Positions 1,726 through 31,900 of a DNA stretch of 64,000 nucleotides are shown piece by piece; position 1 is the first letter of the stretch; every line of letters begins with the position of its first letter. This DNA comes from Catajapyx aquilonaris (Eukaryota), in the NCBI GenBank assembly GCA_000934665.2, contig JYFJ02000087.1, positions 1 through 64,000 of the forward strand. Direction: 5' to 3'. The notes beneath the pieces are model-generated. The model did not search any database and had not been told where the DNA came from. It saw only the letters and a list, made by a program, of their open reading frames with translations. Both the position numbers and the translations under genes were made by a program.

Positions 1726-1935
1726 CTACACGTTAAGGTCAGCCATCATCTTCCTGAAGTCAGCCAACGTGTTGTAGTCGGGATCAGAGTCAATGTCTGC
1801 AAAATCCCGGCTGGTGTCTGTCTTTGCAAAATTAGGGTTGTAACGGCTCAGCGAGAGTGGGCAGGGGAGGAGCTCAGGCATCACGGAATGATGTGTTATC
1901 AGTGCTGTCAAGGTGCAGAATTCCTTTGTGAAGCC
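1726..1935 (-). CDS. EGFRAP: Terminal coding exon, end of SH2 and C-terminal tail (GFTKEF...DPDYNTLADFRKMMADLNV*)
   Basis: Follows a 65-nt intron. Acceptor tttcctttccag|GGC. 210 nt ending in TAG at 1728-1726. Confidence 0.95.
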   Translation of the reverse strand, partial: GFTKEFCTLTALITHHSVMPELLPCPLSLSRYNPNFAKTDTSRDFADIDSDPDYNTLADFRKMMADLNV

Positions 1936-4900
1936 CTGGAAAGGAAATATCCGCAAGGTTGCACAGTGACTATTGCATTTCACATCTATTTTACACCCAC
2001 CTTAATTTTGTATCCCTTGGCAGTCCTCATGATGAGGTAGTGTGCTATTCCAGATGGCTGGAAATCCCTGGGTACCCTGAGGGAGAGCGCAAAGCACCCT
2101 GGCTTGCTGGTGCTCTCCCTCACCATGAAGGCCCCTACTGGCTCCTGTCCCAACACTTCCAGGGCTATCTCCCGGGGTATCCCAGCCTGGAACCAAGGAG
2201 CGGCTCTGAGCTCGCTCTCTTCTCCAGCCTTGCCGAGCAGGTGGAGGCTGTCACTCCGCTCTGGAGGATGGGGAGGGGTTGGGGAGAGGGCAGGGGGTGG
2301 CGGAGGAAGTGGAGGGGGCGGCGGGGGAGGTGGAGGGGGTGGGGAGGGAGACGGAGAGCCGTCGCTGTTGGGTTCGATGATGGTGGTGTCCGTGGCAGTG
2401 GTTGGCTCCTCAGCAATGCTGTCGGTGACTGTCGAGTTCTGTGTGCTGGTGCTGAGTTGGGATATGCGCTTTGACTTGCAATCATCACTGCTCGGAGTTG
2501 TGCTTTCACAGGATCTGCAGGGAGCAAGGAATTTGGTGAATACAACATCACTTTGAGAAGAAATATGGAAATCATAATATATGCACAGTACATGACAGAC
2601 ACTTGACAAAAACCAAATATTTGAATTATTTTCAGACTAGACTTTGAAAGGGTAAAGTTCAAAAGTCTAAGTGGTCAATGTTTTTCTCTGTGTATTTCGA
2701 GAATCATTAGTGTCAGTGCAATGGGCTCTTATGTGGAGCTGCATCCACTTCATCTGATAGCATCATAAAATATGTATGGATTATGAACCTGCCATTAACC
2801 AATTCTGTTTACAAGCTTATCATATTGTTCCACAGAGTGTTTAGCAAAATATGGCTCACAAACTGTCAAAATATGCTTGATTATCATAATTAGGTTGCGT
2901 TGTCAACAACCATAATAATTTCTGGACCGGTGACCGACATGGAATAATTCTGTTTAGAATAATGGCAATGACTGTACCAGTGTACATGTTTTCTCGACGT
3001 TGATAATTATATGCCAGTAATCAAATTATCATCATTTTGTACATTTCGGTTGGCACTGCTAGACCTTTGAATCACAAAGTTTATTGAGATAATATACAGG
3101 GTGATCCAACAAGGAATAACCACTGCTTCTTTAGCTTTTTTTCCAATGAGCAAATGTACTTGAGGTAGGGAGTGCTAGTGTGCTCCTCTTCAGCCTCAGG
3201 TTGCCTGAGATTGATGAACTCATCGTAAAATATTTTGCCACACAATAAATAAAAAGCAGGCAAAACAAGTGTAGCAATACTTTTGGTGCTACAAGTAATC
3301 CTGATACTTTGTTAGTGATTATTATAAAAAGGCTAAGTAAGCCAAAATAATTTCTATAAGCAGTGTTTCTTGCTTGTCTGATGCCCACCCTGTATACTGT
3401 AGTAACATCTACCAAACTCTTCTATTAATGCAAGCCATCCAACACAGACTTGATTGACAGCTAACCTTTTGGCATCCACGTCAACAATGTCCCTGTTGTC
3501 CAAGTGCCTGGAGTCCTTTTCAATGGCATCCGAGTTGACAGCCTGGTTCACATAGCCGAGGGAAGTCAGGGCCAGCCTGGAGCAGTTGGAAGTGGCAGTG
3601 GCAGCTGGCGAAGTGCTGACTAGTGGGCAGAGGTCCTCCTCCCCGAAGCCCATGGTGAACCTCTTGATCAGGGGTGGCTTGTCCACCAGCCTCTTGTACG
3701 AGTTCAACTCTGTCGGGGAGTTGCTCTCTTCACTGCAAGGCGTCAGCTGGTCCACATTGTTGTTGTCGTTGTGCTTGTTGTTGCCTCCAGATGCCAGGAA
3801 GCCGCTAGCTCCTAGTCCTGACTTATTGCTGGTGGCTCCCAGAAGTCCGGGGATTGAAGTGGGCTTGGGAGGCTGAGGACCACAGCAGGATTAGTTATTG
3901 CAAATGATTAGTAATAAGGAGAGTCTCACCTTGATGGGAGACATTGGGACGTTGAGCCTGTGCTGCGGAGGTCCCAATGTGAGATGGTGGTTATGCTGGT
4001 TGTTGAGCTGGTGGTAGAAGTGCTGCTGCTGGTTCTGGTGCTGGTGCGGATGGTGGTGATGGAGGTTGTGGTGGTGGTGGTTGTCGAGTGTGGCTCTACT
4101 GGCGCCGTTCAGCACCACTCCTTGCTTCCCAAACTGGTGCGGGGCCGAAAGGGCATTCATGGCATCGAAACGACCCACCAGCGGGTCCTTATGCTTGGAT
4201 TTGGCAGCCACTTGCTTCGCCTTTCCAGAAAATTAGGAAATTTTTATACACATTTGACTCACACACCAGCAAACATATCGGTCGACCAATCAACCGCACT
4301 TATTTGCACTTGCCACACACACGCGTCGCCAAAGGTCCATGCGATAATTAACCCCAGTGTTTGCCCACATCCGACTCCATCAGATCATACGTTTAATCCC
4401 CAAAACACGGCTAGTCCCTTGAGAGACTTGAGGCTGACTTTAGCCCAACACCAGTTGCAGGTTTTAAAAACCCCAAGTCCCCGTGGCCCGAAGGTGGACT
4501 TGCATGCATTCTCCCACGAGCTAATCGCGTTGAGACTTTCCAACGGAAGCCCACCTAATTGGATTACTCTGCCCATTAACTCTGGACTTGTCGAGCACTC
4601 AAGCGAGGATCCACCTTCTCCTTTCGCCCTCCCCTTGATTTATCGCCTCCTCACCTGCCGACCCCTTACCTCCAGGTCATCAAATGGGACCAAGATTTCA
4701 AATACGGTAGTGTATTTGAATATAATAATAAAAGGAAAATGGAAGTGGGAGCAGTAGCCCCATTCACAGCCAATCACGGCCAATTACGTCACAGCACCAA
4801 TCGCTGGGCACTATAAACCCATGAATATCGATATGCATTTATGTAGGGTTTATCGATATCCATACATGCATATCGATATCCATACATGCATATCGATATC

Positions 4901-7900
4901 CATACATGCATATCTATATTCATAAATGCATATCGATATTCATAAATGCATATCGATATTCATACATGCATATCGATGTGTATCGATACATCGTGATACG
5001 TACCCAGAGCTTGGCATGCGAATCCTCAGCGTTTTTCGAGTTGTTCCTAGCCTCGGTGTCGGTGCTGGTCTTGGGCGCGGGCAAGGTGGTGCAGGTGACT
5101 ATGGAGGCGGCGGCAGGGGCGGCCCCTAGAGGCGTAGAAGCAGTGGGCGAGACGGGCGAAGAGGCGTCCAATACCTTCACGGAGCTGTAGGATCTGGTCT
5201 GCAGCTGGGCAGCATAGGCCATGCGAAAGGCATTGCCCACGATGCTGTTCAACTCTTCCGCCTGCGCAAACAACAAAACCAGACACGGGATCGGTCACTA
5301 ACACACGCAATCCATTTGATCACCTGCTAACGGGCCTGTCATTCTCTAGGAAACGAGGGGGGGAAGGTCCAATCATGTAAGAATATAGACTATACCCACA
5401 GGTTCGTTATTTTAGCGATTTTTTTTACTGTTAACGAGATCCTATTATGGGGTTTATCGCAACAGGAAAAAAAAAAGTAGGCTGGAACATTGCCATTTTT
5501 TAAAAACTTTTTTAATAGGACGCGGAGAGTAAAAAGTTGCGCTCTGTTGTTTTTCATAGTTAGAAACTTTTAGCCTTTTATAAATCGTGCGTGTAATGAG
5601 GGTTTGCGGTGGTGGAAGCTACGATAGGATCATACCTAGTCACAATCAGAGCAGGTGACCATGCAATTTTTGTTGTTGTTGGAAAACATGTTTTTCGCGT
5701 CAGGTACTCCCAACAAGCTTGGTAATAGTGAGGGCAAAGAGGATAGTCGAGGGCTGGAGTTATGAGACTGTCAACCACTCGATTACAAGCGCTCCGATGT
5801 GACAGCCAACATCTTTCCACTCGTTAATCTGGGATAATGCGAGCTCATGGATCACTCTTACCAGCTAAATCCTAACATACGACTTTTATCGGCCGGCAAT
5901 CACTCAGACTTATTCCCTCCCACGTTTTTTCCTCATCTTATCTATCAGGAAGGGCAAGTGTTTGCAGGTTGGGCTCCAGGGGGATGGGGGTCCTATCACT
6001 GGTTAATTTATGTCGCACGTGACTAAAGAAGCAGTTATGTGGCTAGCACTAAATAAATCATAAATCGGAATAATTCATTGCTCGGTACATCAGATTTCGG
6101 TGATGACATATAACGAGAGTTGGTTTTTATTTCCCGACTATGCCCCCCTGAATGGCTCTTTATATTCGGCACTAAAATCCGCTCGTCTGCAATAAAGGCG
6201 TCGCAAAAAGCAAGACCATTATCAAGGGCGCCGAGGGTCCCCTACCTCCCATCAGGTCACACCTGAGGAAACAGCAAAAACTCGTCATCCAGAAGAAAGG
6301 ACAATAGAAACTGCAATAGAATCCTGACCCCTCGGCAGGTGAGAGGCCAAAGCACCGCACATAGGAAAAGTACCCCCCCCCCCCNCCCCCCCCCCCTCTC
6401 ACCAACTCATTTTGGGGACACGTGGGAGGCCCAGACACTTATGAGCTAGGATTTATAATTCGGGTGGCTCGGAATGAGACCGAGCTTACAAAGGAACCGC
6501 TGAGGTATTTTCATGTACACGTTCACCGTGGTTAATAAAACAAATTCCGAATTCCATCGCCAGCTACCTTTCCTTCTCTGCCCTTGGCACAGGTGACATT
6601 CCAGTCACGTTTTTTATATACCGTATATTCCTTGCGCTCTCCTAATCTCCTCCCATTTCTACGCTCTATACTGCATCCATCTTGGTTCCCTACCTTTAAA
6701 AATGGCATTAAATAGGAGGGCATGCCAATAAAAATGGCTACCCTTAGGTCGATTCCGATATTATTTCATGTTTTAAGACCATTTGCGACATAGGATGATA
6801 TGTAGCCATCCTATAGCGTACAGCCATGTGCTGTACTCAGATCAGCATAAGAAAACACTCTGCACGAGTTACACACGAGAATGTGCGCTGAAATGTGCGA
6901 AACCACGCAGCGTAAATCAAGGTGAATTCCCGGTGAACTGCAAGAGCATCCATTTGGGCCAAGGGAGAGGTCCGCCCCCNCCCCCCCCCACTTTTTTTTC
7001 TAACAGACCCCACCCGTATATATAATATCAGATCCATTTTTCATGAAGTTATGGAACCGGGCCAGACTATAAAATGGCCAGCTCCGATCGGATTTTCAGA
7101 GGTTGAGCCACGTGCGCCAAAGTCCGAAGAAAACTTGCAGCTCATGACCTTTTATGACGTCTTTCCCCCCCAAAATGCAAATAGCACGTATTTTTCTTCA
7201 GCAAAGTCACAATTGTGCGGAATGGTTGAACGTGTGGGAGCGAGGAAAGACGAAATTTTGGGGGGTTCCCCCTTCCTTCTGCCTCATTTGGAACAGAAGC
7301 AAAAGTAATTGTGGCGCCAGGATGAACTTGGCTGCAGCGCTAAATCCCCCAATCTGCTTCTCGGCACCTCCTTAGTATGATCCCGGTATCGTCTTTCCCC
7401 CACCCAACCCTCCACCCACCCCCTGCCGTACCAAACTCGGTGGGGCGCAGATTGCTCCTGTAATTTCTGGCCACCCGAGCATTATCGGAACCCAGATGAC
7501 AGCTTTGAAATGGGAAACCGAGCGGCTCCATGCGCCGCAATTAAGGCGGCACGGAGCCTATAATTGTATGCACAACTTTATATACACCCATCCTAAGCTC
7601 TCTAGCACCAGTATGAATCAGAAGACTGACCCTTACCTCTTTCCTATATATGCAGGAGGGTTCCGACTTACGCAGACCTGGACACACGTAAAAAATTGGT
7701 TACAAAAATACCAACAAATGCATCCGGGTGGTTTCGGAATGTATGGTACCGAGTTACGTATGCATATCCGGACATACGTAACAACGCTCCAGTGTCCGGC
7801 TCCGAGTTACGTACACTTGACTTATGTAAGTCGGGGGTAGAGCAACTAGAGCCTTTCCTTAACCCTTTTCATGAACATAAATGGTTAAAGAGTGGTGGTG

Positions 7901-10900: not shown

Positions 10901-13900
10901 TTGGGCAAATTTTCATTCTAGATGCAAAATTGAACAGATTCTCATATGCAAAATTCGCAACTGGGGTGGTCCCGCCCGTAGCACTATCTCGCCTGTGTAT
11001 ACGTTTCGGTTCGTTACTTTTCAGGGCGGAGTGATGCACCGAGCTACTGTTTTATGGGATGCATGGCCTGGGATAAGGTCAGTGGCGTCTATTTATTATG
11101 GCGGTTTTGTGTTTGGAAGGGGCCAATTAACGGCATGCCACCCTGGAGGAGATGGGGCGGGCTGCATTGGTGGCCGGATTCGCCCCTGGTTCGCCTGTCA
11201 CTCCGAAGCGTTTTGGAAAAAAAAAAACTGCTTGTATGAGTGAGGCCGGAAAATTATTCTGTGTCATGATAACCGGACGTGAACTCACGTTTTTGAGGCT
11301 CGATATTCACGAATTGCGATCCTGCCATAATCATCAGGGAAAGGTTTTTTTTGTAAAAAAATTGGGAGAATATGTGAAAGTTTTTAACGCGCTGCATTTA
11401 ATGAGATGGGAGGTGAAAAAAAAGTTCGGTGTTTTTTGATTGCGTTATCATAGTTCATCACGGACCGTCTGGTTGTTGAGCGATGTGTTTCGGCAATTAT
11501 GTAAAAATGCATCGCATGCAAATACAGCCGAGTCATAAGTGGCGTCATTAAATTGCTTCCAACCCAAAACAACATCAGGGAACTCATTTTCAAAACATCG
11601 ATCAGCCATAATGATAAGAATTTTGCGATGCATTGCCCCAAAAAATGATGTACATGCTCATGCGATTGTATTTTTTGTTAAACTGCTTGAAAGCAGGATG
11701 AAGCGAGGTTATTGCACCTAACAGTCTAAGTTATTACTTTTCTTTCCAGGTCATACGATTACCGCTCCTGACTTTTAGACTCCCCTCAGGATACGAAAGG
11801 CATCTACATCCTTTTGATCTTTAGGATACACTATATTGAATCACCGGATACCATTTGCTGACAGCACAATACAAACCTTATTTTCTCAAATATTAAGGAA
11901 CCCTGGGAGCTGTTTAGCTAAATAACGGCCTATATACGGAAACAATTCTTAAAAGAACTGCCCCTCTCCGTCTCCCCCCAACCAATACGTACTCCTGACA
12001 AATGCTCCTCATAAAAGTAATGGCAGTCGTAATCGCAGCTGCGTTCTGAAGATGGAAGCAAACCGAGCTCCGGTGATATATGAAACAGACGTAAAAGGAT
12101 AAACGTTTACCAGGGGGGTGCAGCCCTAAGGGACAGCACTCTGGACGCGTCCCCGGTGGGCTAATGAAATCACTAACTTCATCCCTACACTGTGCTAATG
12201 ACGTCACGCGCACACTTTTCACTCCAGCCACGTAATCTACTAATCCAGAGGTCTGGACCGTACACGGGGAAGGCCCGGCCCAAACAAATTGGGACCTGGA
12301 TTTTAACAGCCGGATTAGCTTCAGGGGGGCCTGCTGGTTAAACCCTCGGGGGCACGCTCCTTTTTAATGTTTGCCTTCAAAAGAGGCCTAAATGAAATCA
12401 GGTGTTTTCATTATAATCTCGTTTCAAAAACACGGAAGCTATGAATGGGGGTTGTGCACGGAAAATTGGGGCGCTTCTCAAAGAGCGCGATTCAAACGTC
12501 CTAGAAATAGGAAAATATGATATTGGGAGGCACTAATTGCGTTACTTACTGGCCAAAACAGGGAGTAATTTTTAATGGAAGACAAAGCCAATGCTCGTTC
12601 GATATTCCGCTTTATTAGCGGAGCTGAGTTGGCGCATGAGATGGCATATTGCTCACTAACAAGATGCTGCAGCCTTGTCTGGCCCACATCAAGCTGCAGG
12701 TCAGTACAGGTCACGGAAACCCCCACGATTTTCTAACCCATTCATTCAATCACAAGTAACCCTGAAGCATCCTGTACAAAACAGAACGCCATTAATTTCC
12801 TCAAGGCGACAAATCCTTTAAGAGAAAGCCCAACTCCACCCATCACATACTTGGAATCAAACCAAAATGACGCCTAACCACAACGCGATGGTGGAATTGA
12901 ACGTCCTACGCACACAAAAGACACACTGAAACCACATGTGGGCGTCGGAAATGACATTCCGTCACAGGACACCCCCAGGATAAAAGGAGCTTGGTGTAAA
13001 AAGGAGTCGTATGTCCCGTTTTCCTTCGGCACGCTCGGCTTGCTTCAGGCCTAGGGACCACATAAAATGGCCATCCCCCAACAGCAACAGATGTAGTCAA
13101 GTCTCTTACGGCTCTTTCTTTCACCCCACTGCTCCGACCGGAAAGAGGACTCCATTCAAAAAGGCGCCTTTCACCGTTTTATGAAGTTAGCACGCTCTGG
13201 AAGGCCCCGAAAAGAATCCGGCTTTTGGGGAGCCCCCCCACCATTCACGAGGAAACCCGAGAATCGGATTTAATTTCTACCACATTGCAGGGTTCAGCTG
13301 GCTCCCAATTTTGTGGGCACCAGCAAGAGGTCACCTTTCCACCTCCCGAAGAAGGAAGGCGCCATCCTGCTCCATTTCCCGCTTCCAACTTGACCTCCAT
13401 AACAATCAGCCAATTATGCTAAACCATCCCTACCTTCAGTTTTTGCGTGTGTCCACACTGGCAACAACAGTACGAGATGTAGTCAGGCAACTTGGGAAGA
13501 ATCTGCAGGTAATCTTTGTCCAAAAGTTTCCGATACTTCACTGCGAAGAATGGATTTCCACTGCCACTCCAGTACTTCAGCCGGCCCATTACTCTTCGTG
13601 ATGGAGTGATGTGGTCAACAATTGTGTCTATCGCTTGCCATATGTTATGGCCTGTACCATCTGCGTCACGAATAAGTTTTTAAATTTTAATATGATGGTT
13701 CAACGAACTTGTACCAATAGTACCTTCACGTGCCTTCCTCAAGTATGATATAATTTCACCAGGGCTTCTCACTTTTGCAATACACGCGCACACACTCTAG
13801 CTATAGTAGACACGTGAGAGAGGTCCACTTGAAGTAATCCACTAGAATCGAAGAGAGCGTGAAGACTGAGGCCGCTCAGAGGCCCATCCAGCCAGGAATG

Positions 13901-16900
13901 TGAAGGAGAAGGGCTAGGGGGGAGGCCCTGTTTGCCTTTTTCCCATGCAACTTTTGGTTGGGAGGCTCTCCACTAGCACACCACTCTTCTCTCCAACCAA
14001 CAACCATCCAGTTCTGCCCCTCTACTGGGAACTCAGATAAACTTTTCAAGTGGACCCCCGGCTCATTCCCACCTCCATTCATCGGACCACATACAACGCT
14101 GGGGTCTATTTTTGCAGGAAATTCAATTCCAGGAAAATGGAGGGGGGAAAAAAAAGGTCGAGTGGGTTATCGAGTGGTTTATTTACATAGCCTGAAAGTG
14201 GAGCCGGTTCGGACATGGTCAACAATGTGCTAGGTGCACTATTTTTATAACTTGTAAAATCAATGGCGTCATTGTTGAGAGTGACGAAACATTCCTGAGG
14301 AGGTCAATGAACATGACCCCCTTTTTTCTGGTCATCAAATCAGGCTGATCTTACCTAAATACCTCAAGTTCCACAAAGTGTAGGAAGAAGAGTGTGGGGG
14401 ATGTTGAGTGGGGGGGGGGGGGTTGTCCGGGGTGGGTTGAAGGGACTAAGAATGCCAGGAATCTCACGTCCAGCAGGTTCCTGGCTGTCGGCCACCCCCA
14501 GGCCACCCCCACATCTTTCCCCCATGAAATTTTCCAGGCATTGCTCCACCTGGTGCTGGAACGGCTTAAAACGCAGTGTTGCCATCCAACAGCAGGTGGC
14601 CGCACATGCATCATAATTTGAATAATATCATATGTCTGACAGTGTTGTGACACTGCATGTAACCAATTGTTGACATTGTGTATAAGTAATAAGAGAGTCT
14701 TGTGAAAGTAACCCCCTGTCGCCACTTACTTTGTCGGCTTCCATCGTCTCTGGGGGGAAAAAAAACTTATTGGAACGTTCCAGCCTGGAAAATATCTCCT
14801 TTTTTTTTCCAGGTTCGCGTTTCTAAGACTTGAGGCAAGCCCCTTTGGCCACTCCACAAAAAGAAGGGCTGGAATTTCATTCCTTGGAATCTCGAGGCTT
14901 TAGTTTTCCTGTACTTCACTTCCAGGCTCGAATTCATCTCTTTGGGATACCGGACCTGGACCAGGCTCGTTACCGAAGCAATTCTGTGGACCAGATTGGG
15001 CCGCAACCGAATTTCCAAAGGACTTAAGGATTAACCGCACCTGCCACTGGACACTTTGAGCCTGGGTAAAATAACAGGTTGGGGTTGGTGCTGAAACGCA
15101 CTTATAAGTAACCTCCAAGGAAGAGATTTTGGATTGGGAAAATATGTCAATTGGCTCGGAGTAAATTGTGCGGTTTGGGTCACGGACTGTTCGCGTGTCA
15201 GTGAGGACTCTTTTTACTCCCCGCCTTTGTCCCTTCTTTATGATGACCATTTACCTCGAAAATTGTACAAGCCGGATCGGAATGTAGTTTTGGCACGCAC
15301 AGGCGAAGATCGCAATACTTTCATGCACGAATTCCGTGCAAATTGTTTCGAATATTGAATTGACCAGGTCTTCACATTCAATGTTGCATATCGTAATTGT
15401 TGTGTACATTATCTGGCCATTGTATGTTGTGTGATGATGTCAAAAGCTATTAGATAATTGAAGTAGTTATTAGCAGTATATTGTGAGCTGTATAGTATTT
15501 GTGCAATTTGCTGGAGTCACCAATGAACAGTCCATCCTAGCGTATGGACACAGGCATTTAATTTCAATTGACGCTATCACCTGTTGCTTTCGGTTCTGTA
15601 TCGATTGCGGGCTAGTGTTGGAAATGTAGCTCATCAAATGCAGTTACCTGCAGTTACAGTTAGTGCGTGGAAAAGCAATCGTCGGGACCTAATTTATTAC
15701 TGTGTAGTTACCAGGCTGCTTGGGGAAAAAAATTAGCCCAGTCAAACTACAGTTACAGGCACAAGTTACAGTTACTAATTAAAGTTAACTCGAATAATAT
15801 TGGACTGTTTTTCTCCATTTGCACGCAACCTTTGCATCACCTTTGAGTAACCAAATGTCTCCTCCAAATTCACAAACTGATCCTGCATATCCTCAAATAT
15901 GGAACTTCTCAGCAAATCGTAATCCTTTAGAAGCCTCACTGGGCACCGACTTGAAAATGGTCAATATTGGAAGAAGAAAAAAACTGTTGAAATCCGAAGA
16001 AAAGAGTTGGTGGAACGAAAGACGTGGTGTGCTGCCTGATTACATGGGCCACATTCCCAAAGGCCAAGGTGGGAAGTGGCGTGCCGAGGGTCCAATCACG
16101 CATCCTCCTTCGTCCTCTCATTATCCCCAAAAACCTCCGCCTCTCCTTCTTCTCTCCCCTACTCGTCTAATCCCCCTTAATCCTGACCCCTATGAGTTAC
16201 TGGGTATGGAATTTCCGGAATGTGTTGCGTCCGGGTCTGTTTCTTCACGCATGATTCCCAGAAAATCACGATCAAAATGCCTCGCATAGCATAGACTCAA
16301 ATGGAAAAAAAGAAATATAATTCAACACTGTTGTAATAATTAATTGGCAACAATTGCGCAGTGCCATTTGCAACACCAACCCTGAAGCCGAATCAATTAA
16401 CAAGGCATCGGCTCACCCAGCTGGAAACTCATCTCACCAACACCCCCCCAGCTTGATTGATGAACTACCCAATTGTTGAGTGCGTATCTGGTTAGCTTGC
16501 AAGCCCCATCGTTTTATGAGCTAAAGGTGCGAGTGCATTTTGGGATCCTATCCGGAAGGCTTTTCCCTCCAAGCCAAGCTTTTACGAGGCGCTTTGAACC
16601 CCGGCGGACGACTATTTCCAAACACATTCTACCATCTTTTATATGCAAATCTCCTTACAGTGGGGCAAGCTTGATGACCCCTACTCTGAAGCTATGAATT
16701 GTTGACAAAGTAATATGCCCCATTTTTATCCCCTTAAATTAATTCCGGTTGAGAGCAATGACCCAAACAATTTTGGGTGGAGTTAGGTGACAATCCCTGC
16801 GTGAAAAATGATTTGGAAAAAAAAAAGGCGGCTTCTTTTTCATCGACAGATCCGTCCTAGAAAATTAATCCCAGAGGCGAGACTTCCTCCGACGCTGTCA

Positions 16901-19900
16901 GGACCTAGAGTGAATTAAGCCTGCCAAAGTCGGACGTGGCCCACCTTTTTTGTTCGCAAAACCCCCTAAAAAAAGTTCAGTAACCGCTCACAAAAAATAT
17001 GCAGATTTTTTTTTTTGCACCGTCCCACGCGAGCCTTATTTGCACTAGATTTTATCCCTACCTGTGTACAGTCCATTACAAGGCAACAAGAGAAAGCACT
17101 TGTTAGTTAATTAGGAAGAATGCATTATTCATCGAGTTTCGCAGGGGCCGTAAAGAGCCAGGTGGAACCCCCCCCCCCCCCATACAACGTTGCCAATTTT
17201 TTCCCCCAACCATTATTTCGCAGAGTGTGGACAATATTTTACGGATCATATTGGAGGAAGTGACGGAAACAGCAGGACCCTTTGCCCCGTTGCTTACTTT
17301 CAACAGGACAGGAAAATGACACAAGTTCGCACAGCCGGAGTCTCTCCGTATAACTTTGCCAAGTTCCAGCATCCGGGGGCTGGGAAACTAGTTGAGGAAA
17401 TACGGACCCCGGAAAGCTCCCTGTGATGCATTTCTCTCGCCGTTTGCTGTCACATTACTCTGCCGAGTGCTGGACCCGCGGCTCCCAGCCCCCGCTTCAC
17501 TCTCCTTTATGAAGGCTCTACTACAGGCACATTCTCCATGTTTGACTTACTTTCGCCCTCACTTACAACCACTTTACCTCATTTTCGCCTCCTTTTACCC
17601 CCCCCCCCCCCCCCNCCTTTCCCCCCCCCCCCCCCTGCCTTACTATTGCAATTCAACTGAGCTGACTCGACGGCCTTTTACTTTTATGTAATTTTGCGCG
17701 TGGTAGAGCATCAGCTGATAGGCTACACAAAATGCAGCGATAATTCACTCAAGTCGCAATTAAAAGCTTGAATCAAGCCTGAGTCGTCTACTTTGTAATT
17801 ACTGGCAGAAATCCCGTCATTTTTTAAAATATGATCGTCCTGCAGAGAGCACCACTTGGCCGACCAACAAAGCATATATGCTTCCAAAAATATCAAATCA
17901 CATTAATAGCTCTCACAAATAATTGTAATTATTATAACACCACTTCACACAATATTACATTAATTAATATAATTTCTGGCGGATTTAAATTAATTAACAC
18001 CCCCCCCCCCCTGTAGCTACCTGAAACTCCCTACATCTATTCATACATATAGTACTTCTGATTTCCAATATAACGCTAAATGAGCCCTTTAAATAATCAA
18101 AACTATAAATATTGGATTATGATAAATTCGATTGCGGATATTCGTCATTTACAAACCTATTGACGCCAAATATTGAGGTTCTACCATCCAAACCTATTCA
18201 GCGACCTGTACACACGGTCAGTTCAAATGTCAATAGATGCAGGTTAATTACAACGCGTTGCAAAATAATGGTACTTGCATCACAATTTGCGCCATCTCTT
18301 ATTGCGAACCTAACCTGATGCTAACCACTCCACGACAATAGGCAACTGCGCCTATATACGCCTGATGCCCTAAAAAGAGGAGGGCAGGGTCCAGTGTTGT
18401 ATGACGTCAAAAAACCCCTAACGTACTCCCCCCACGGCGACCCTAAGTCACATTAAGCTCCGTCGGCAAAGCTGACGGTCCGAAATGAGATCTCCCGGTT
18501 TCTCGACCCCGGATGATAATTTATGACATAATAAGTCGAGGAAACCCCCGAGTGGACTTGCTTTGCCTCCATGCTAACTCGCAATTACCATCGCCGAGGT
18601 CACTATTATAACCGATGGGGACACACAACCAAAGGGACTCTCTTTATAGCATGGTTTTTTTCCCGTCTTATCCTGAGACGCACGCAACCAACCGTGAGGC
18701 GGCCTAACCCTCAGGATGCACTTAGCACATTAAAACTGCTTATCTCTGCCGCCATTATTCCAATTGTCTTCTGCCCCAAGGGTTTGGGCGGTTCTGACTC
18801 TACGGACCAGAAAAACGAGCTGTGCTGGCGCCTTGTAAATCCGCCTAATATTCCTGAATATTTATCAAAGGAAGCCATGCAGGCAGCAGGACCCCCCGAT
18901 TTCCATCCCATTTTTATAGACGTCGGGAGCGTAAAGGCGTATAAAACGTTGTATAGCCTTCCTTTTCCCCCCCTCACTAAATGGCCTCGAAGGAATGTCG
19001 CAAAACGCTTCGGGAGGCCAGCGATGACTTATGGGTAATTGACGTGAGCATCCCTCCCCCCTTCCATGGTCTCCAGGGGAGGATTTTCATGGCCATCTGA
19101 CTCGGAAATGGGCTCAGGAGGGTTGTCCAAAGACGCCATTGCTGTGGTCTCCCTTGGATCAATTCCGCTATCGTGCCTACAAGCAGTTGTTGACTCATTT
19201 CGTAGCGTTCCTGGCAAGATAATGCCCGCAGATATTGGCCAATAAATATGAGGATTACGCGTGTAACTCATGTGCCAGACGACGTGAGAAGCAAATAAAC
19301 ATTCAACTTGGGGACGTTTTGATTGTAATTGTGGTTACAGAAAGTGACTACACTGCAGCATGTAGGACACAAATCCGGTGAGAAGAGCTTGCCGGGAAAC
19401 ACAGGGAAACAACATTGTCATAATGCGGTATGGTTTCCACCCCAAATCCGGCTCTGGTATAGAATTAACCTCCAAAACACGGCCAGGTCTAATTTGTCTA
19501 GCAATTTAGGCGTGATAGCCCCAAAGGGAATCGAGGGCCTGTTATCCAAACGTCTGGCACGGGATGCAATGCCTAATTCCTTGGGACAGTTTCTAATCCG
19601 TCGTTTATGCCACGACCGGCTCAGGTGCAAACCTGGCAACGGGATTAAAACGGGCACGGTTTTGACTGACTTGTTATAAATTTTGTGTGCAACTTGAGGA
19701 AATGTCCCATATTTTTGTCCAAAAGGGTACCGAACCTCCCTAGAGAGTACCTAGCAAATAATTAATTCAATTTCCCTTCTGCCTAGATTACGGGCTCGGT
19801 GAGCGTGATTTGCACAAATTAAGTCCCCCAACATCTGCATCTATAAGTACAAACTCCGTTGGGTTTCCTCAGCAGACAAGGAAAACGCGAGTGAAAACAA

Positions 19901-22900
19901 GACAGTCATGCTCGTCTCTTCTCTTCCTGGCGCTGATAGTCGAGCCGGAATAATCACCGCGTGATGTGCATAGTGCGGCCTCATTAACCATTTTACCCCC
20001 ACCCGGATTATCATGCCTCTGCTAATCCCGGAAACACCCAATTTTTGTCGCGCCCAAAAAATCGGCATTCATGCAAGCATGTTATTGGTTCCCTCCCTTT
20101 GTGCACACCAGGGTCGTAATCTCCATCAGCGATGAGGAACCGCTCCCTAGATCACTATTGTTATGTTCATGATTATTGCCATGCCCTCAGACTCCTTGAC
20201 GGACGTTTTCAAAAGCTGAACCGTTGGGGGGGATATTACGACGGGGGTTTAATGTCAGTGGAAATGGGCTGAGATAAATTTTCTCTAAACGCTCGTGGGG
20301 GATTTCATCTGAGATTTCCAACCCAAGGATGTCCAAACAGCGTAGGAAAAAAAATTGGATCTGTTTATATGAACTTAGCTGTTTTTGGTGAGGGAAACAT
20401 GAGCAGTAATATGCCATTACAGCCGACGCTTATAGACGATTCATTTGCGTTAGCAGCGCAAGCTGTGTGGAAGGGTGGATATAATTGCAAGCCGTAATCA
20501 AAGAGCATGAGAATCCAATGAATCAAGCTAGCGGCATTTAATCTTGTTTTCAGCTGGCTGCAACATTATTAATCACACGCATGACAAATGATACCAGAAC
20601 AAAGTTGAATATTCCGGATCCCTCCCCAAAAAGGGATCATTTTCCAGGCGACTTGTGCGTCGGAAGCTGGCTCATAACCGGGTTCCCACTGGCACGGTGG
20701 TTAAACTCTACTTTAGTGATCGATGATGGTAATTAAGATAATGAAGCACACGTTTCGATTGAGATGGGAAGGGGATGGAGAACACTGAGTTCAGCTCGGG
20801 ATGAGAAATCAGGGCTGATGCCAGTTTTTTTGGGGGGGCCAAAGCGGAAATTAATCAAACTCATCTTTCCCACAAAGCAAACAACCCCTGAAGTTATGAG
20901 ATTGCTGCAATTATACGACAAATAATCACGCCATTCAGTCACTGTCTTCAAATCTAAAAATGACGCACCAGATGACACTATTTTTTTCTACCATCTACAA
21001 AATTATGTTGCAAAAATCCTCACTTCATTTTTAATGGCCAACTGCCCCCGACAAACCTTCCCCATCGACAAATTCCAATTTGCGGGCTCGCGACGCAGTT
21101 GACTAATTGAGATAACTCATGGGGCCCTGGCTGGGTCACTCGATAAAGCGCGACATATTTTCCCCGGCGCGATGATATGAATCCGGTAACAAAGTGCTCG
21201 CAGTTACGCCCAAAGTTAATTAATTGTGATTACTCTGGCGGGAAGTGCATGCAGGGATGTTATTGGATGGATGTCCCACGCATGACCTCCGGAGGTCATC
21301 TGCGCAATGGAACACTGCGACGACGAGGTCAGAATAATGAGCAATGGTCGCCGTTTGGTTGGGGTCCAATAGTAAAATTCGTTGTTAAAACAATAAATTC
21401 GGATCCGTCCAATAAACAACACCCCGGGAGAACGGGGATTCCCCGCATTGCCCAAATTCCGGCTTATTCGCGAATCCGCTGATCTCCTTCTTCCCCAGAC
21501 TAAGACCACGTACAGTACGTGTAAGGCTCCGTACACGCCCATGCAGAAGAGAATGGCGGCGATGGTAGTCAGCAAGGAGATTGCAGAAACTCCGTCCTAG
21601 AGAGTTTCTGCCCCTCTCTCATGGGTCTTGTTGGGAAATGAACGAGCAACTGGAACCATAAATAAATTTGTGTGGGCTCATTCGTAGGGGGGAAAGGCAG
21701 CGGCCTGCCTCTTGGCCTCAGCCTAATGCCTGAAGCTTTCCTAATGAAATCCCTCTGCAAATGGGAGTACCCATATTTACACCCAACTAGTACGAAGGTA
21801 CCGGAGTGGTTCAGACAGAGAAAAAAAAGTGAGCTGAAAAAATCCTAGGGGAAAAGTGATCCCTGAGGGTTTGATGGGTTGAGAGGAAGAAGAATCTGTG
21901 CATGCTTTTAGCGCGATTAAAACTTTTCGCGGTTGGTGCGAGAGAGTAGAGGACATAACCCGAGTGACATTGACGGACGGGCACGATTGCAGACGGAAGA
22001 CCGACCGATACTCCAGCCCATTCCTGATAGGCACTGATTTAGCGCCTTGAAAAACTATCAGAGTTATAGCGAGAGGGAAAAATGGCGAGGGCATCAGTCA
22101 GCAAAGACGCCCGTATATTTTTCAATGCTTCGTTTTGAACTCGGAAAAAAAACAAGTCTACAGGCTGTCGATGATGTATGCCACTCTCTCTTCCTATGCA
22201 ATCTTTCTTCTCGTTCAATTTGTAAGGATTTAATGTCTCTCCGGACTCCGGCGCTCCTAGCATCAAATGAAAACTCCGTTTTTTGGGGGGAGAATTTTTA
22301 CTGCCTCTCTCCGTCTCCGCTTTCTCCCCACTTTATACTACCCCCATCGTACTGGACGCATTTAATTTTCCAAAAAATTAAGCCGTCGTCTGGATGGAAA
22401 ATAAAAGCAAGAGCTGCATTAATCCCGGGAGTGCTGCCAAGGGAGATAAGGGGATTGATGGAAAGGGAAAAGAGTCCTCCATCAAATGAACAGGGTGCTG
22501 TTTATACAGGGTGAGTCAGATTCACTTACCTGCTCAGCGTTTTTGGTGAGGAACGTGTGGCAATACTGGAGGCTGAAGTGTCCCCTGGGTTCTCTGGCAA
22601 GGAAGCTGAACTGTAGATGTGCCGGATCACAGGTTGCGTAGGAAATACGCCGCAACGCGTGGGCCATATACACGCTCTGAAACGAGGTAAAATTTCCTTC
22701 CTTAAGAGTTAAGAGCGTGAATAAAGAAACACTGGGGTTGTTATGAACCGGGGGAGGCGTCAATTAGATCAAGGAGGCAATTTGGAGGAGCGTAAAGCTG
22801 CCACGTGAAACGCGGTGCTCGTGACGGAATGAGTGGCTCCAAATGTGTTTGCTGGAATAAGAAACAGCTGTAGGGTGAATTTAAGCGAGTCCTTTTGCCA

Positions 22901-28900: not shown

Positions 28901-31900
28901 CCCAAAAAAGTCGTGGAAGCTTTCACACATTTTTATCCGAAAAAAGCTGGGAAACTATTAAAGTTTTCCAAGTGCTGTTTATGACATCACCGATTTTCAC
29001 CCCCCTCTAAAAAAAGGCAGTAATCCAACATAAAATTTGTCTCGCCAGAATAAACCCCCACACACCCTCTGAACTGTATGCAATTCAGGCCCACTTTAGG
29101 CCGCTCGGTTTAACCCGTTATGATTCGATTTTGGATCTCCAAGCAAACGCCCGAGACCCATGGCAGCATGGGGTTCCCCCAAAAAAATCTTCGGAAAAAA
29201 AAAATCCTCCACTTCGATCCTTGGAATCGGAAATGCAAGTCCTGATCCCAAAGCCCACAGCCTAGATCGGCAAGATAGAGAAAAAAAAGAACGTGACGTC
29301 AGGCTTGGAAGGTCCCGCCAAATGCCTTCCTTTTGCGAAGGCAAGTCTGCAGTAACTCTTCAACCATCACGTGCAAGGTTTAGTCAAGCGGCAAGTCGAC
29401 TTTGCCGTTTTTTAAAGGAATTTCTTTTTTCTCGAGTATGCGACGAAAAGAACGCCAGCATGGTGCAATAGGCAAATATTTTTGCATCCACATGTTCAAC
29501 CACACTCGTGTATGACAAAGTATGGGTTGGTCCCGTAAATTGCGCTTAGGCCGCCTGCATTTGAATAAAATCTCATATAGCTTTTTTCCTAAGTCGATAC
29601 AGTGACATAAATCGTGTGCACTATCACTGGTCTTTTTCCACACACAAAAAAATTCTTCCTCGCGCACCATCCGAAATGAATCGCTCCATTTAACATCCCC
29701 AACCGATTCGATATCCTGGGAAAAGCCTCCATTTCTGAAAATCCGGATCATCTCACTTATACCACCAAAATAAAAAGGAAGACTAAAAAAAGGACGCCAC
29801 TTTTTCATTACAACCTGAATTGTACCGAACAATGACACTATACGATGTACTTCTAGTAAACAACTTGGCTAAACTCCACTTTTAAGAAAATTAGCTGCAA
29901 TTTACGTCATTAGGTGGTGCTGAAGGAGTCTGAGGGCACCGGTACCTTCCCTCAAAACTTTTTAGAACTCAATTTGCATGGACTCGAGAAAACTGGAGAT
30001 TGGCGGACAATGCAATTTCAATTTATGCAGAAACTTGGGAGTGTCACAGCCACGCGAATGTCTCTTCGGGGTTCGGCTTGGGGAGGGAAACAGCTCCGGA
30101 TTTTTTTCCCCCCCGACTTTTATTTTTTGCGAACCTAGTAGGGTGTGGCCTTCTACTGAGGTCTTTTACTGTTGCGTTCGCATGCTGAAGAATCGGAATT
30201 TGCCACGCCAGTAATGGGCGGGGTCTTAAAGTTAGCCCACGCGATAGTTTTAAAAAACCCCTTCCCATTTTAATTTCCACGTTGAAACAACTCAAATTAA
30301 CTCTAACTCGTCACTTTGTTCCGGAAATGTACTCTTGAAAATTTATGTTGTAACTCCCTGCTTCTGGCTTTTAAGAAAGTGCGTTGCTCCTTGAGTTGGA
30401 AATTAATTTCGCTTCCTCGTATCCAACGGGAATAAAATAATAATCTCGTCTTGGGGAAACGTACTTTGAGCCAAATTCTCGCCCCGGAGATCCGCCAGTT
30501 TTGGGGAAATGAGCTCCAGTCAATGGGTTTCAAATTAGTGGACGTGGCCTTTTCCTTCTCTTCTTCTTCTTCTTCTTCTTCTTCTTTTTTTCTTATTTCA
30601 GTTCTCGAAGCGGGTGTGACGGGAACTAAAAAAAACAGGACGCGGTTCCATTCGGAATTTAATCCCTTCCAACATCCCCTTCCCGGAGGCTGGTTTATCA
30701 TCAGGATTCCAAAAAGCACCCAGAAGTTCATCTTGAACCCAATAGAAACCCACCCCCTCGCTTTCCATTTTTTCCTTGCATGCCAAATCAGCTCATCTTT
30801 TTCATGCTTTTTCTTCTTCTTCTTCACGACGTATGCATCTAAAACAAAGCATATGCTACTAGTTGAAAAGTAGTGAAAAAGCAGTAGAGGTTAAGTGGAG
30901 CACAATAACAGTAGGCCCCATATTGACTTGGACGTTTCCAGCCAATGCACACAATTGGAGGCAGATTAAGGTCAGTCCAGCCTTTGCCTCGTTTACATTA
31001 CTTGTCGAGCGGAATCCCTACCCGAAAAATAACACGTGCCACAAAGAAGCCCATGGGTACAGACCACACGGATAATTTCCAGGGGGAGACCCCCATATGC
31101 GTAGTAGTTACATCCACCCGCGGTTATGCATGCCAGAGGGGAACTCATTATGCAAAACAAGCTTACATTGCATTGTAGCAAAATATCACTTGGATGGAGT
31201 GTGTCACATGATCCGGATTTCACTTGGATGGAAAACATCAAAAACGCAATGTGATACATAGTGGCCCGAAGACCAAATTAAAATATAGTAAATTAAATTG
31301 TAATTAACTTACTTTGCCATCGGGACTGCATACTTTGATGCCTGCCAGGGAGATTACCAATGACACAGGCTTCTTTCTGGCAGCTCCCTGAAAAGAAAAA
31401 AAAAGATGTCGATGTTCATATTGGCATCATGTCAGAGGAGTTGAAACGCCGGCTTCTCTATATTGGAGATCCAGCGGATATCGAACTACATTGTGACCAA
31501 TACCTTCCAATATTACAAGGCGCTTCCAAATTGGCCGGACAAAGATAAGGAGGGGCAGAGGAGAGCATCATCCTAGAGGGAAAATGCTGCGGAAATTAAC
31601 GTTCCCTTAGGGAGGGCACATCGTCTTTTCCCAAGCAGTCTTGGGTTATATTATGACAGGGGAGGCTTGTAGGAGAGGTCTGGGACGAGTTTGAACGGGA
31701 ACTGGGTCCATTGGCAGCCGGGCAAAGTGCAGGAGGAGAGCAGCACAGAAGGCATAAATGGGAGTGGTAAGGCGGTGCGGCAAGTGGGATGGAAAATCCT
31801 TTATGGTTTGGCGGCGGGTGAGGCCGTTTGCCAAGCGCTGGGAGGTCGAGGGACCCTGCAATTCTCCCAATCGCCATAATATTCCTTTATGGACTAAGTA

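What the first reader, a model, noticed from the sequence alone, without database searches (positions are those of the whole stretch)
14730..14749. Dual-function 20-nt microexon: start for an SH2-only isoform, poison for the full-length one
The splice sites are near-ideal. From an internal promoter the exon supplies a strong-context ATG reading MEADK|AEELNSIVGNAFRMAY..., an adaptor without a foldable PTB. Included after the 22530 exon, it shifts the frame to RRWKPTKRKS-TGA early in the next exon and makes an NMD target. One tiny exon could thus switch the locus between PTB+SH2 and SH2-only products. This is the best candidate for an undescribed regulatory system in the window.
Basis: partly seen in the sequence, partly recalled or inferred. 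Interest (0 to 1): 0.7.

Follow-up and report, generated by a model that had tools for sequence, protein, structure and literature searches.

The report
Unproven start microexon beside conserved exon
In an arthropod signalling-adaptor gene, a 20-base stretch looks like a tiny start exon for a shortened protein but is unproven, whereas an old cysteine-rich alternative exon nearby, shared by insects and krill, is the well-supported route to the version lacking the PTB domain.

Summary
The sequence is as described: AG, 20 nt, GTAAGT at 14749-14730 (minus strand); ATG 14744 is in frame with exon 5261; inclusion after 22530 gives a stop at 5251. The gene is an EGFRAP/SH2D5-like PTB+SH2 adaptor. Sites this strong are uncommon (1-4 per 1.2 Mb), and an Inr/E-box/double-donor leader at 17658-17551 could feed the exon. 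Use is not shown, and none of 306 homologous proteins starts MEADK-like, although some annotated relatives have other 1-8-residue starts at this junction. The poison frame is uninformative: 72% of random short intronic inserts give a stop.

Promoter and first-exon choice, not this microexon, most likely sets PTB+SH2 versus SH2-only.

Odds for the 20-mer: minor start exon 0.42, pseudo-exon 0.35, 5'UTR/uORF exon 0.13, regulated dual switch 0.10.

The parts
14730..14749 (-). Candidate 20-nt exon; ATG at 14744-14742 gives MEADK, in frame with exon 5261 (predicted 564-aa PTB-less protein)
   Evidence: Sequence; use not shown
14750..14765 (-). T8C6 pyrimidine tract and AG acceptor; a further AG at -18; no UGC within 40 nt, no CUAAY within 100 nt
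14724..14729 (-). GTAAGT donor of the candidate exon
17551..17658 (-). Putative non-coding leader exon of an internal promoter: Inr TCAGTT (+1 = 17658), donors after 17578, 17567, 17551; holds one ATG (2-codon uORF with the two GTAAGT donors)
   Evidence: 0 of 606 background Inr sites have two GTAAGT donors in the same span; motif-based only
17710..17719 (-). E-box with CAGCTG core, 52-61 nt upstream of the Inr
   Evidence: the 10-mer occurs 4 times in 1.2 M strand-bases; noticed after inspection (post hoc)
13434..13589 (-). Conserved alternative coding exon, 52 codons, MGRL...Y-x-KL...CxxCG...K, phase-0 donor; spliced to 5261 it gives a 611-aa PTB-less isoform
   Evidence: tblastn of homologues E to 8e-15; 47 representatives at E<=0.001, 37 of 46 parsed read on into V at the donor and 2 are spliced to the helix; krill protein P0231; no Pfam match
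13590..13867 (-). Possible 5' part of that exon: Inr TCAGTC at 13867 with a one-mismatch DPE at +28, or entry by the acceptor at 13841; two short uORFs
   Evidence: motif-based only, DPE consensus recalled
5004..5261 (-). Shared exon: PTB C-terminal helix plus linker; in-frame Met at 5222; stop of the shifted frame at 5251-5249
   Evidence: a contig of run X1 covers 5003-5237 and joins to the exon at 4220
22530..22676 (-). Third PTB exon (phase 0 donor)
31313..31387 (-). Second PTB exon
48951..49031 (-). First PTB exon (an earlier coding exon lies outside the window, L003:4753-4854)
3930..4220 (-). His/Gln-rich linker exon
3466..3872 (-). Linker exon with the conserved SPTELNSYKR/KPPLIKR block
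2001..2514 (-). Pro-rich region and most of the SH2 domain
   Evidence: Pfam SH2 E 1.1e-10
1726..1935 (-). Last coding exon, end of SH2 and C-terminal tail, TAG at 1728-1726

Best explanation
The gene is a single-copy EGFRAP/SH2D5-like adaptor whose long PTB3-to-helix intron holds internal starts. PTB+SH2 versus SH2-only is set by where transcription starts and which exon is spliced to 5261. The main PTB-less form uses the conserved MGRL/CxxCG exon at 13589-13434 (shown by homology; about 0.95). The 20-nt element is most likely a lineage-specific small start exon: a transcript from the putative promoter at 17658 splices its leader to 14749, then 14730 to 5261, and translation starts at 14744 to give a minor MEADK form that keeps only the PTB C-terminal helix (all inferred). 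Any inclusion in full-length transcripts would be an NMD-cleared by-product, not a regulated switch (inferred).
For: Strong splice pair, 1-4 per 1.2 Mb of background. In-frame ATG in strong context, 2% of random 20-mers. Upstream Inr + E-box + two GTAAGT donors: 0 of 606 background Inr sites have two such donors, 1 of 606 has CAGCTG plus one; TCAGTY and CAGCTG are fly promoter motifs (PMC1779564 passages). Precedent at the same junction in RefSeq models: Diabrotica MP| in two species and MFSRHSKW|, Cotesia MEIN|, Belonocnema M|. Fly EGFRAP has a short isoform from an internal start at exon 3 (PMC8407591 passage). Conserved alternative exon.
Against: No MEADK-like start in 306 homologous proteins. 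No close relative's genome was available, so splice-site conservation is untested. Short AG..GT pairs are not enriched over control distances in the background, so chance copies exist genome-wide. The pyrimidine tract is two homopolymer runs, and 84 of 385 background strong acceptors are of that kind. The leader could equally splice to 13841 or straight to 5261 and needs no microexon. The E-box was noticed post hoc. I did not see the exon structure or RNA support of the relatives' short-start models; most of the other 16 short starts are unspliced or hypothetical predictions.
Confidence: 0.42

Rival explanations
1. Pseudo-exon: a chance pairing of a homopolymer pyrimidine tract, AG and GTAAGT in a 17-kb intron, never used at a meaningful level. 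The leader at 17658, if real, splices to the MGRL exon or straight to 5261.
For: 0.05-0.21 such pairs per 64-kb strand, no enrichment over control distances, and 2 of 4 background hits also carry a phase-0 ATG. No homologous N-terminus among 306 proteins. None of the fly neural-microexon cis features.
Against: Joint chance within this one intron is about 0.001-0.006, and the element lies on the sense strand 2.8 kb downstream of a promoter-like leader.
Confidence: 0.35
2. 5'UTR cassette of the conserved MGRL transcript: leader > 20-nt exon > acceptor 13841 (or 13660). The ATG then opens a 19-codon (or 15-codon) uORF that dampens translation of the MGRL isoform.
For: 13841 is a strong acceptor only 0.9 kb downstream; the join gives a closed uORF ahead of the MGRL ATG. 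Several relatives list 2-3 RefSeq accessions for one MGRL protein, which suggests variable 5'UTRs (inference).
Against: An Inr with near-DPE at 13867 suggests the MGRL exon has its own start. The ATG's frame match with 5261 would be coincidence.
Confidence: 0.13
3. One reading: one regulated exon that is the start codon for an SH2-only isoform and a poison exon for the full-length mRNA, acting as a switch.
For: Both reading frames are as stated. The stop lies 1,460 nt before the last junction and 1,667 nt before the normal stop, so it would meet both the junction-based and the 3'UTR-length NMD models (PMC2689934 passages).
Against: A stop follows from 72% of random short inserts, so the poison frame is the default. 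SH2-only output already has a conserved exon and an in-exon Met. Strong constitutive-type sites without the described regulatory motifs give no sign of regulated inclusion.
Confidence: 0.1

Closest known systems
Drosophila EGFRAP (CG33993) and PVRAP, SH2 adaptors that restrain EGFR/Ras signalling (PMC8407591, PMC10379045; passages read)
   Same: Homologues of the window's SH2 exon are named EGFR adapter protein, SH2 domain-containing protein 5 or tensin-like. EGFRAP has a long and a short isoform, the short one starting at exon 3.
   Different: PMC8407591 has 0 occurrences of 'PTB'; PMC10379045 uses it once, for the fly tensin. This gene has a PTB, is single-copy in its genome and has a Cys-rich alternative exon that neither paper's searched passages mention. 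No fly sequence was among my hits, so orthology rests on database names.
RefSeq PTB-less isoforms of insect EGFRAP-like genes (e.g. Tribolium XP_008201398.1, Cryptotermes XP_023718557.1, Diabrotica XP_028141538.1 and XP_072380230.1, Cotesia XP_044598759.1)
   Same: The same junction is used by an MGRL/CxxCG exon and by very short starts.
   Different: None begins MEADK; whether their short starts come from internal microexons or first exons was not visible to me.
eMIC/Srrm234-dependent neural microexons of Drosophila (bioRxiv 10.1101/2021.02.24.432780; passages read)
   Same: Very short cassette candidate in a long intron.
   Different: Those have weak 3' and 5' sites, long AG exclusion zones, UGC near the acceptor, UCUC tracts and CUAAY; this element has strong sites, an AG at -18 and none of the motifs.
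Poison exons coupled to NMD, and alternative first exons making N-terminal proteoforms (PMC13082882 passages, including Sxl; hybrid first/internal exons, 10.1101/2021.05.27.446076, listing and abstract start only)
   Same: Frameshifting cassette; promoter choice changing the N-terminus.
   Different: Known poison exons are defined by observed NMD-sensitive inclusion, which is not shown here.

Membership tests
EGFRAP/SH2D5-like PTB+SH2 adaptor | N-terminal PTB followed by C-terminal SH2 | tested here: met
   SH2 E 1.1e-10; PTB3 exon PID E 0.035 alone, below cut-off; three PTB exons and the helix exon map by tblastn to PID-bearing homologues
EGFRAP/SH2D5-like PTB+SH2 adaptor | SH2 closest to this family | tested here: met
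   78-93% identity to family members in nearly all of the 120 listed hits
EGFRAP/SH2D5-like PTB+SH2 adaptor | Binds and restrains EGFR/PVR signalling | not testable with these tools
   Shown only for the fly genes (PMC8407591 passages)
Real (spliced) microexon | Canonical AG and GT sites, 30 nt or less | tested here: met
Real (spliced) microexon | Junction reads on both sides | tested here: inconclusive
   The one available run does not reach this region (see Tried and rejected)
Real (spliced) microexon | Conserved sites or peptide in relatives | tested here: inconclusive
   0 of 306 proteins MEADK-like; no close genome available
eMIC/Srrm234-dependent microexon | UGC close to the acceptor, long AG exclusion zone, CUAAY, UCUC tract, weak splice sites | tested here: not met
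   Nearest UGC at -88, AG at -18, no CUAAY or UCUC in 100 nt
Poison exon (AS-NMD) | Inclusion creates a premature stop far from the 3' end | tested here: met
   TGA 5251-5249, 1,667 nt before the normal stop; true of 72% of random inserts
Poison exon (AS-NMD) | Inclusion after the upstream coding exon, stabilised when NMD is blocked | not testable with these tools
   Needs RNA with NMD inhibited
Alternative start exon from an internal promoter (MGRL exon 13589-13434) | Conserved ATG-started ORF with a conserved phase-0 donor spliced to the shared exon | tested here: met
   50 of 185 helix-bearing homologues; 37 of 46 parsed representatives read into V at the donor; insects and krill
Alternative start exon from an internal promoter (MGRL exon 13589-13434) | Mapped transcription start in this species | not testable with these tools
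   Only Inr/DPE/E-box motifs

The most novel reading that the evidence does not exclude
One intron carries a three-way start module: a leader at 17658, a 20-nt ATG exon and the ancient MGRL/CxxCG exon. The 20-nt exon would act according to its partners: start codon when joined leader>5261, uORF brake when joined to 13841, NMD trigger when joined after 22530. The MGRL exon would replace the PTB sandwich with a CxxC hairpin in front of the retained PTB helix, forming a small undescribed pancrustacean module (a metal half-site or a lipidated membrane anchor) that re-targets the SH2.
Probability: 0.08. Interest if true: 0.7.

Novelty: new variant of a known kind. Interest (0 to 1): 0.3.

Why it matters
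If the 20-nt exon is used in both contexts, it would be a compact case of one exon acting as start codon or poison depending on the promoter, in a regulator of receptor tyrosine kinase signalling. The firmer result is smaller but real. Insects and krill keep a Cys-rich alternative N-terminus, without a Pfam family, that swaps out the PTB of the EGFRAP/SH2D5-like adaptor. It is annotated as an isoform in databases, but I did not find it discussed in the papers returned, and it gives a testable handle on how long and short forms of this adaptor differ.

Tried and rejected
RNA: no RNA holder listed. The one run listed, X1 (kind not on record, Logan contigs), gave one 882-nt contig covering 5003-5237, 24 nt short of the acceptor, and no cover of 14730-14749 or 13434-13589; this is no evidence either way.
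Relatives' DNA: none for this genome. The metagenome scan with the MGRL exon gave 1 locus from 362 pattern matches, a 17-residue match that I set aside.
Word-indexed homologue search with the MGRL exon alone: 0 of 2 candidates; the unindexed search found 47.
Repeat origin of the 20-nt region: one match each, itself, for 201 and 1,001 bases (filtered search). Paralogue to compare with: none, next SH2 hits 42-45%.
MGRL exon as a duplicate of the PTB3 exon: profile comparison probability 0.1%, rejected. ESM Atlas on residues 1-56 of P0095: best 0.84, several PTB clusters, under the 0.9 mark, a lead only.
AlphaFold2 on 35 MGRL isoforms: mean pLDDT 48.5, pTM 0.25; only residues 41-70 reach 74-77 (hairpin 41-45/52-56, helix 57-77). 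Foldseek listed SH2-containing structures only, from a low-confidence model. Homodimer plus zinc prediction: no verdict.
Other leader candidates: the 15255 donor has no Inr-type motif between it and 15878 in my scan; Inr 15878 with donor 15648 carries two uORFs.
Literature searches for a start-plus-poison microexon showed no such case in the listings; I read passages of only two of those papers. I opened no supplements; bioRxiv supplements are closed, and exon tables there could hold similar cases.

Full report
Verdict. The 20-nt element is in the sequence exactly as described, but nothing I could reach shows that it is spliced. It may be a minor start exon.

The gene. The window holds most of a minus-strand adaptor gene. 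Its SH2 exon hits Pfam SH2 at E 1.1e-10 and is mostly 78-93% identical to arthropod proteins named EGFR adapter protein, SH2 domain-containing protein 5 or tensin-like. Homologues map PTB exons at 49031-48951, 31387-31313 and 22676-22530, then a shared exon at 5261-5004 that carries the PTB C-terminal helix. Four more exons run to a TAG at 1728-1726 in one open frame. An earlier coding exon lies outside the window. The gene appears single-copy. A contig of run X1 joins 5004 to 4220, so that junction exists in spliced form.

The observation. 14749-14730 is flanked by a T8C6 tract with AG and by GTAAGT. The ATG at 14744 has A at -3 and G at +4 and is in frame with 5261, giving a 564-aa product. 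After 22530 the exon shifts the frame to RRWKPTKRKS and a TGA at 5251-5249.

How unusual it is. It is the only pair of this strength on the window's sense strand. In 1.2 M strand-bases from 60 other stretches of the genome there were 1 (GTAAGT) or 4 (GTRAGT) such pairs, the same as at control distances. That is 0.014-0.058 per intron of this size. An in-frame ATG occurs in 9.5% of 20,000 random 20-mers of the intron, 2.0% in strong context. The combination is rare for one intron (about 0.001-0.006), but a scan of more than a thousand windows of this genome (1,289 noted) should meet several by chance (inference).

The poison arm. Of 20,000 random 3-30-nt intronic inserts placed between 22530 and 5261, 72% gave a stop. 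If included, the stop would be 1,460 nt before the last junction and 1,667 nt before the normal stop, enough for either NMD model (PMC2689934, passages). This shows only that inclusion would be cleared, not that it happens or is regulated. The element also lacks the marks of fly neural microexons (weak sites, long AG exclusion zone, UGC, UCUC, CUAAY; bioRxiv 10.1101/2021.02.24.432780, passages): it has an AG at -18, UGC only at -88, and no CUAAY or UCUC in 100 nt.

The start arm. This needs an upstream promoter, and there is a good candidate. An Inr (TCAGTT, +1 at 17658) has an E-box at -61 to -52 and donors after 17578, 17567 and 17551, two of them GTAAGT. Of 606 background Inr sites, 0 had two GTAAGT donors in that span, 6 had two GTRAGT, 27 had CAGCTG upstream, and 1 had CAGCTG plus one GTAAGT. 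TCAGTY and CAGCTG are described fly promoter motifs (PMC1779564, passages); the 10-base E-box and DPE consensus I used are recalled, and I noticed the E-box after looking. Leader > 20-nt exon > 5261 would put MEADK as the first long frame behind a 2-codon uORF.

What relatives show. Of 306 stored proteins, 185 show the start of the helix exon and 121 do not (fragments, other parts, or divergent). Upstream of it, 93 have the PTB3 exon, 50 an MGRL/CxxC exon, 5 skip PTB3, 21 have 12 residues or fewer, and 16 are other. None is MEADK-like, and 9 entries start at the Met inside the helix exon. Five of the short starts are RefSeq models: MP in two Diabrotica species, MFSRHSKW, MEIN in Cotesia and M in Belonocnema. 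Short lineage-specific starts at this junction therefore have precedent, though I did not see their exon structures. Many of the other short starts end in Q and look like read-in from the intron (inference).

The exon that was missed. At 13589-13434, 1.1 kb downstream of the 20-nt element, is a 52-codon ATG-started exon with a phase-0 donor. Homologous N-termini match it to E 8e-15. An unindexed search found 47 representatives; of 46 parsed, 37 read on into V where the donor lies, 2 are spliced to the helix and 7 are other. Named carriers span mayfly, termite, cockroach, orthopterans, hemipterans, louse, beetles, wasps and ants, and the krill Meganyctiphanes. Among 72 aligned copies Y19, K21, L22 and Q49 are 98-100% conserved; the CxxCG was part of my selection pattern there. 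It has no Pfam match and is not a detectable copy of PTB3. A low-confidence model places a hairpin with the CxxC at its turn before the retained helix, the only N-terminal part above pLDDT 70. It may start at an Inr at 13867 or be entered at the acceptor 13841.

How it most likely works. Shown by sequence and homology: a PTB+SH2 form, and a conserved PTB-less form through 13589-13434. Inferred: an internal promoter at 17658 whose leader can be spliced onward, and the 20-nt element as a small, lineage-specific start exon for a minor PTB-less form (0.42). Rivals: pseudo-exon (0.35); 5'UTR cassette that adds a 19-codon uORF to the MGRL message (0.13); regulated start/poison switch (0.10). In the first three, promoter and first-exon choice decide the domain content.

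What is known. Fly EGFRAP has a long and a short isoform, the latter from an internal start, and restrains EGFR/Ras with PVRAP (PMC8407591, passages; PMC10379045, passages). Alternative first exons and poison exons are common (PMC13082882, passages). Searches for EGFRAP, for SH2D5+PTB+isoform and for the fly gene names returned no title or read passage on the Cys-rich exon. Three searches for a start-plus-poison microexon listed no such case, with passages of two papers read. Most subscription papers are outside this library. The scan's own index had no note on this locus or sequence; two loosely related notes from this genome did not change my reading.

Scores. Novelty: new variant of a known kind. 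Interest 0.3: the headline mechanism is unsupported, the start exon is an even bet, and the conserved alternative exon is solid but already present in database annotation.

Noticed in passing
window 13434-13589 (-): Conserved Cys-rich alternative coding exon (MGRL...CxxCG) shared by insects and krill, no Pfam family; function of the CxxC unknown.
   Followed up: yes
window 17551-17719 (-): Promoter-like cluster: E-box, Inr, G-rich leader and three donors within 27 nt; one N lies inside the G run.
   Followed up: partly
window about 27965 (-): A second Inr followed by two GTRAGT donors, in the PTB2-PTB3 intron. It could drive the MAHALRR-start isoforms annotated in several relatives (e.g. P0006, P0139, P0142, P0152, P0260).
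   Followed up: no
window 4831-5010: 20-nt minisatellite (about 7-9 copies, self-complementary, with TATCGATA cores resembling the recalled DRE motif) directly behind the donor at 5004.
   Followed up: no
window 4220 and 3465 (-): Weak constitutive sites: the 4220 acceptor is a purine-ended AAG, yet a contig of X1 uses it; the donor after 3466 is GTTAGC.
   Followed up: partly
window 14770-15030 (-): Cluster of CCTGG/CCAGG/TTCCAG words with small palindromes just upstream of the candidate exon; single-copy in the genome search.
   Followed up: partly
L003:4753-4854 (- strand; outside the window): Upstream coding exon of the full-length isoform (LPDGSCFRR block), E 2e-8.
   Followed up: partly
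homologues P0011, P0069, P0101, P0141, P0200: Five annotated relatives skip the PTB3 exon in frame (PTB2 joined to the helix exon), another route to a broken PTB that the phase-0 introns here would also allow.
   Followed up: no
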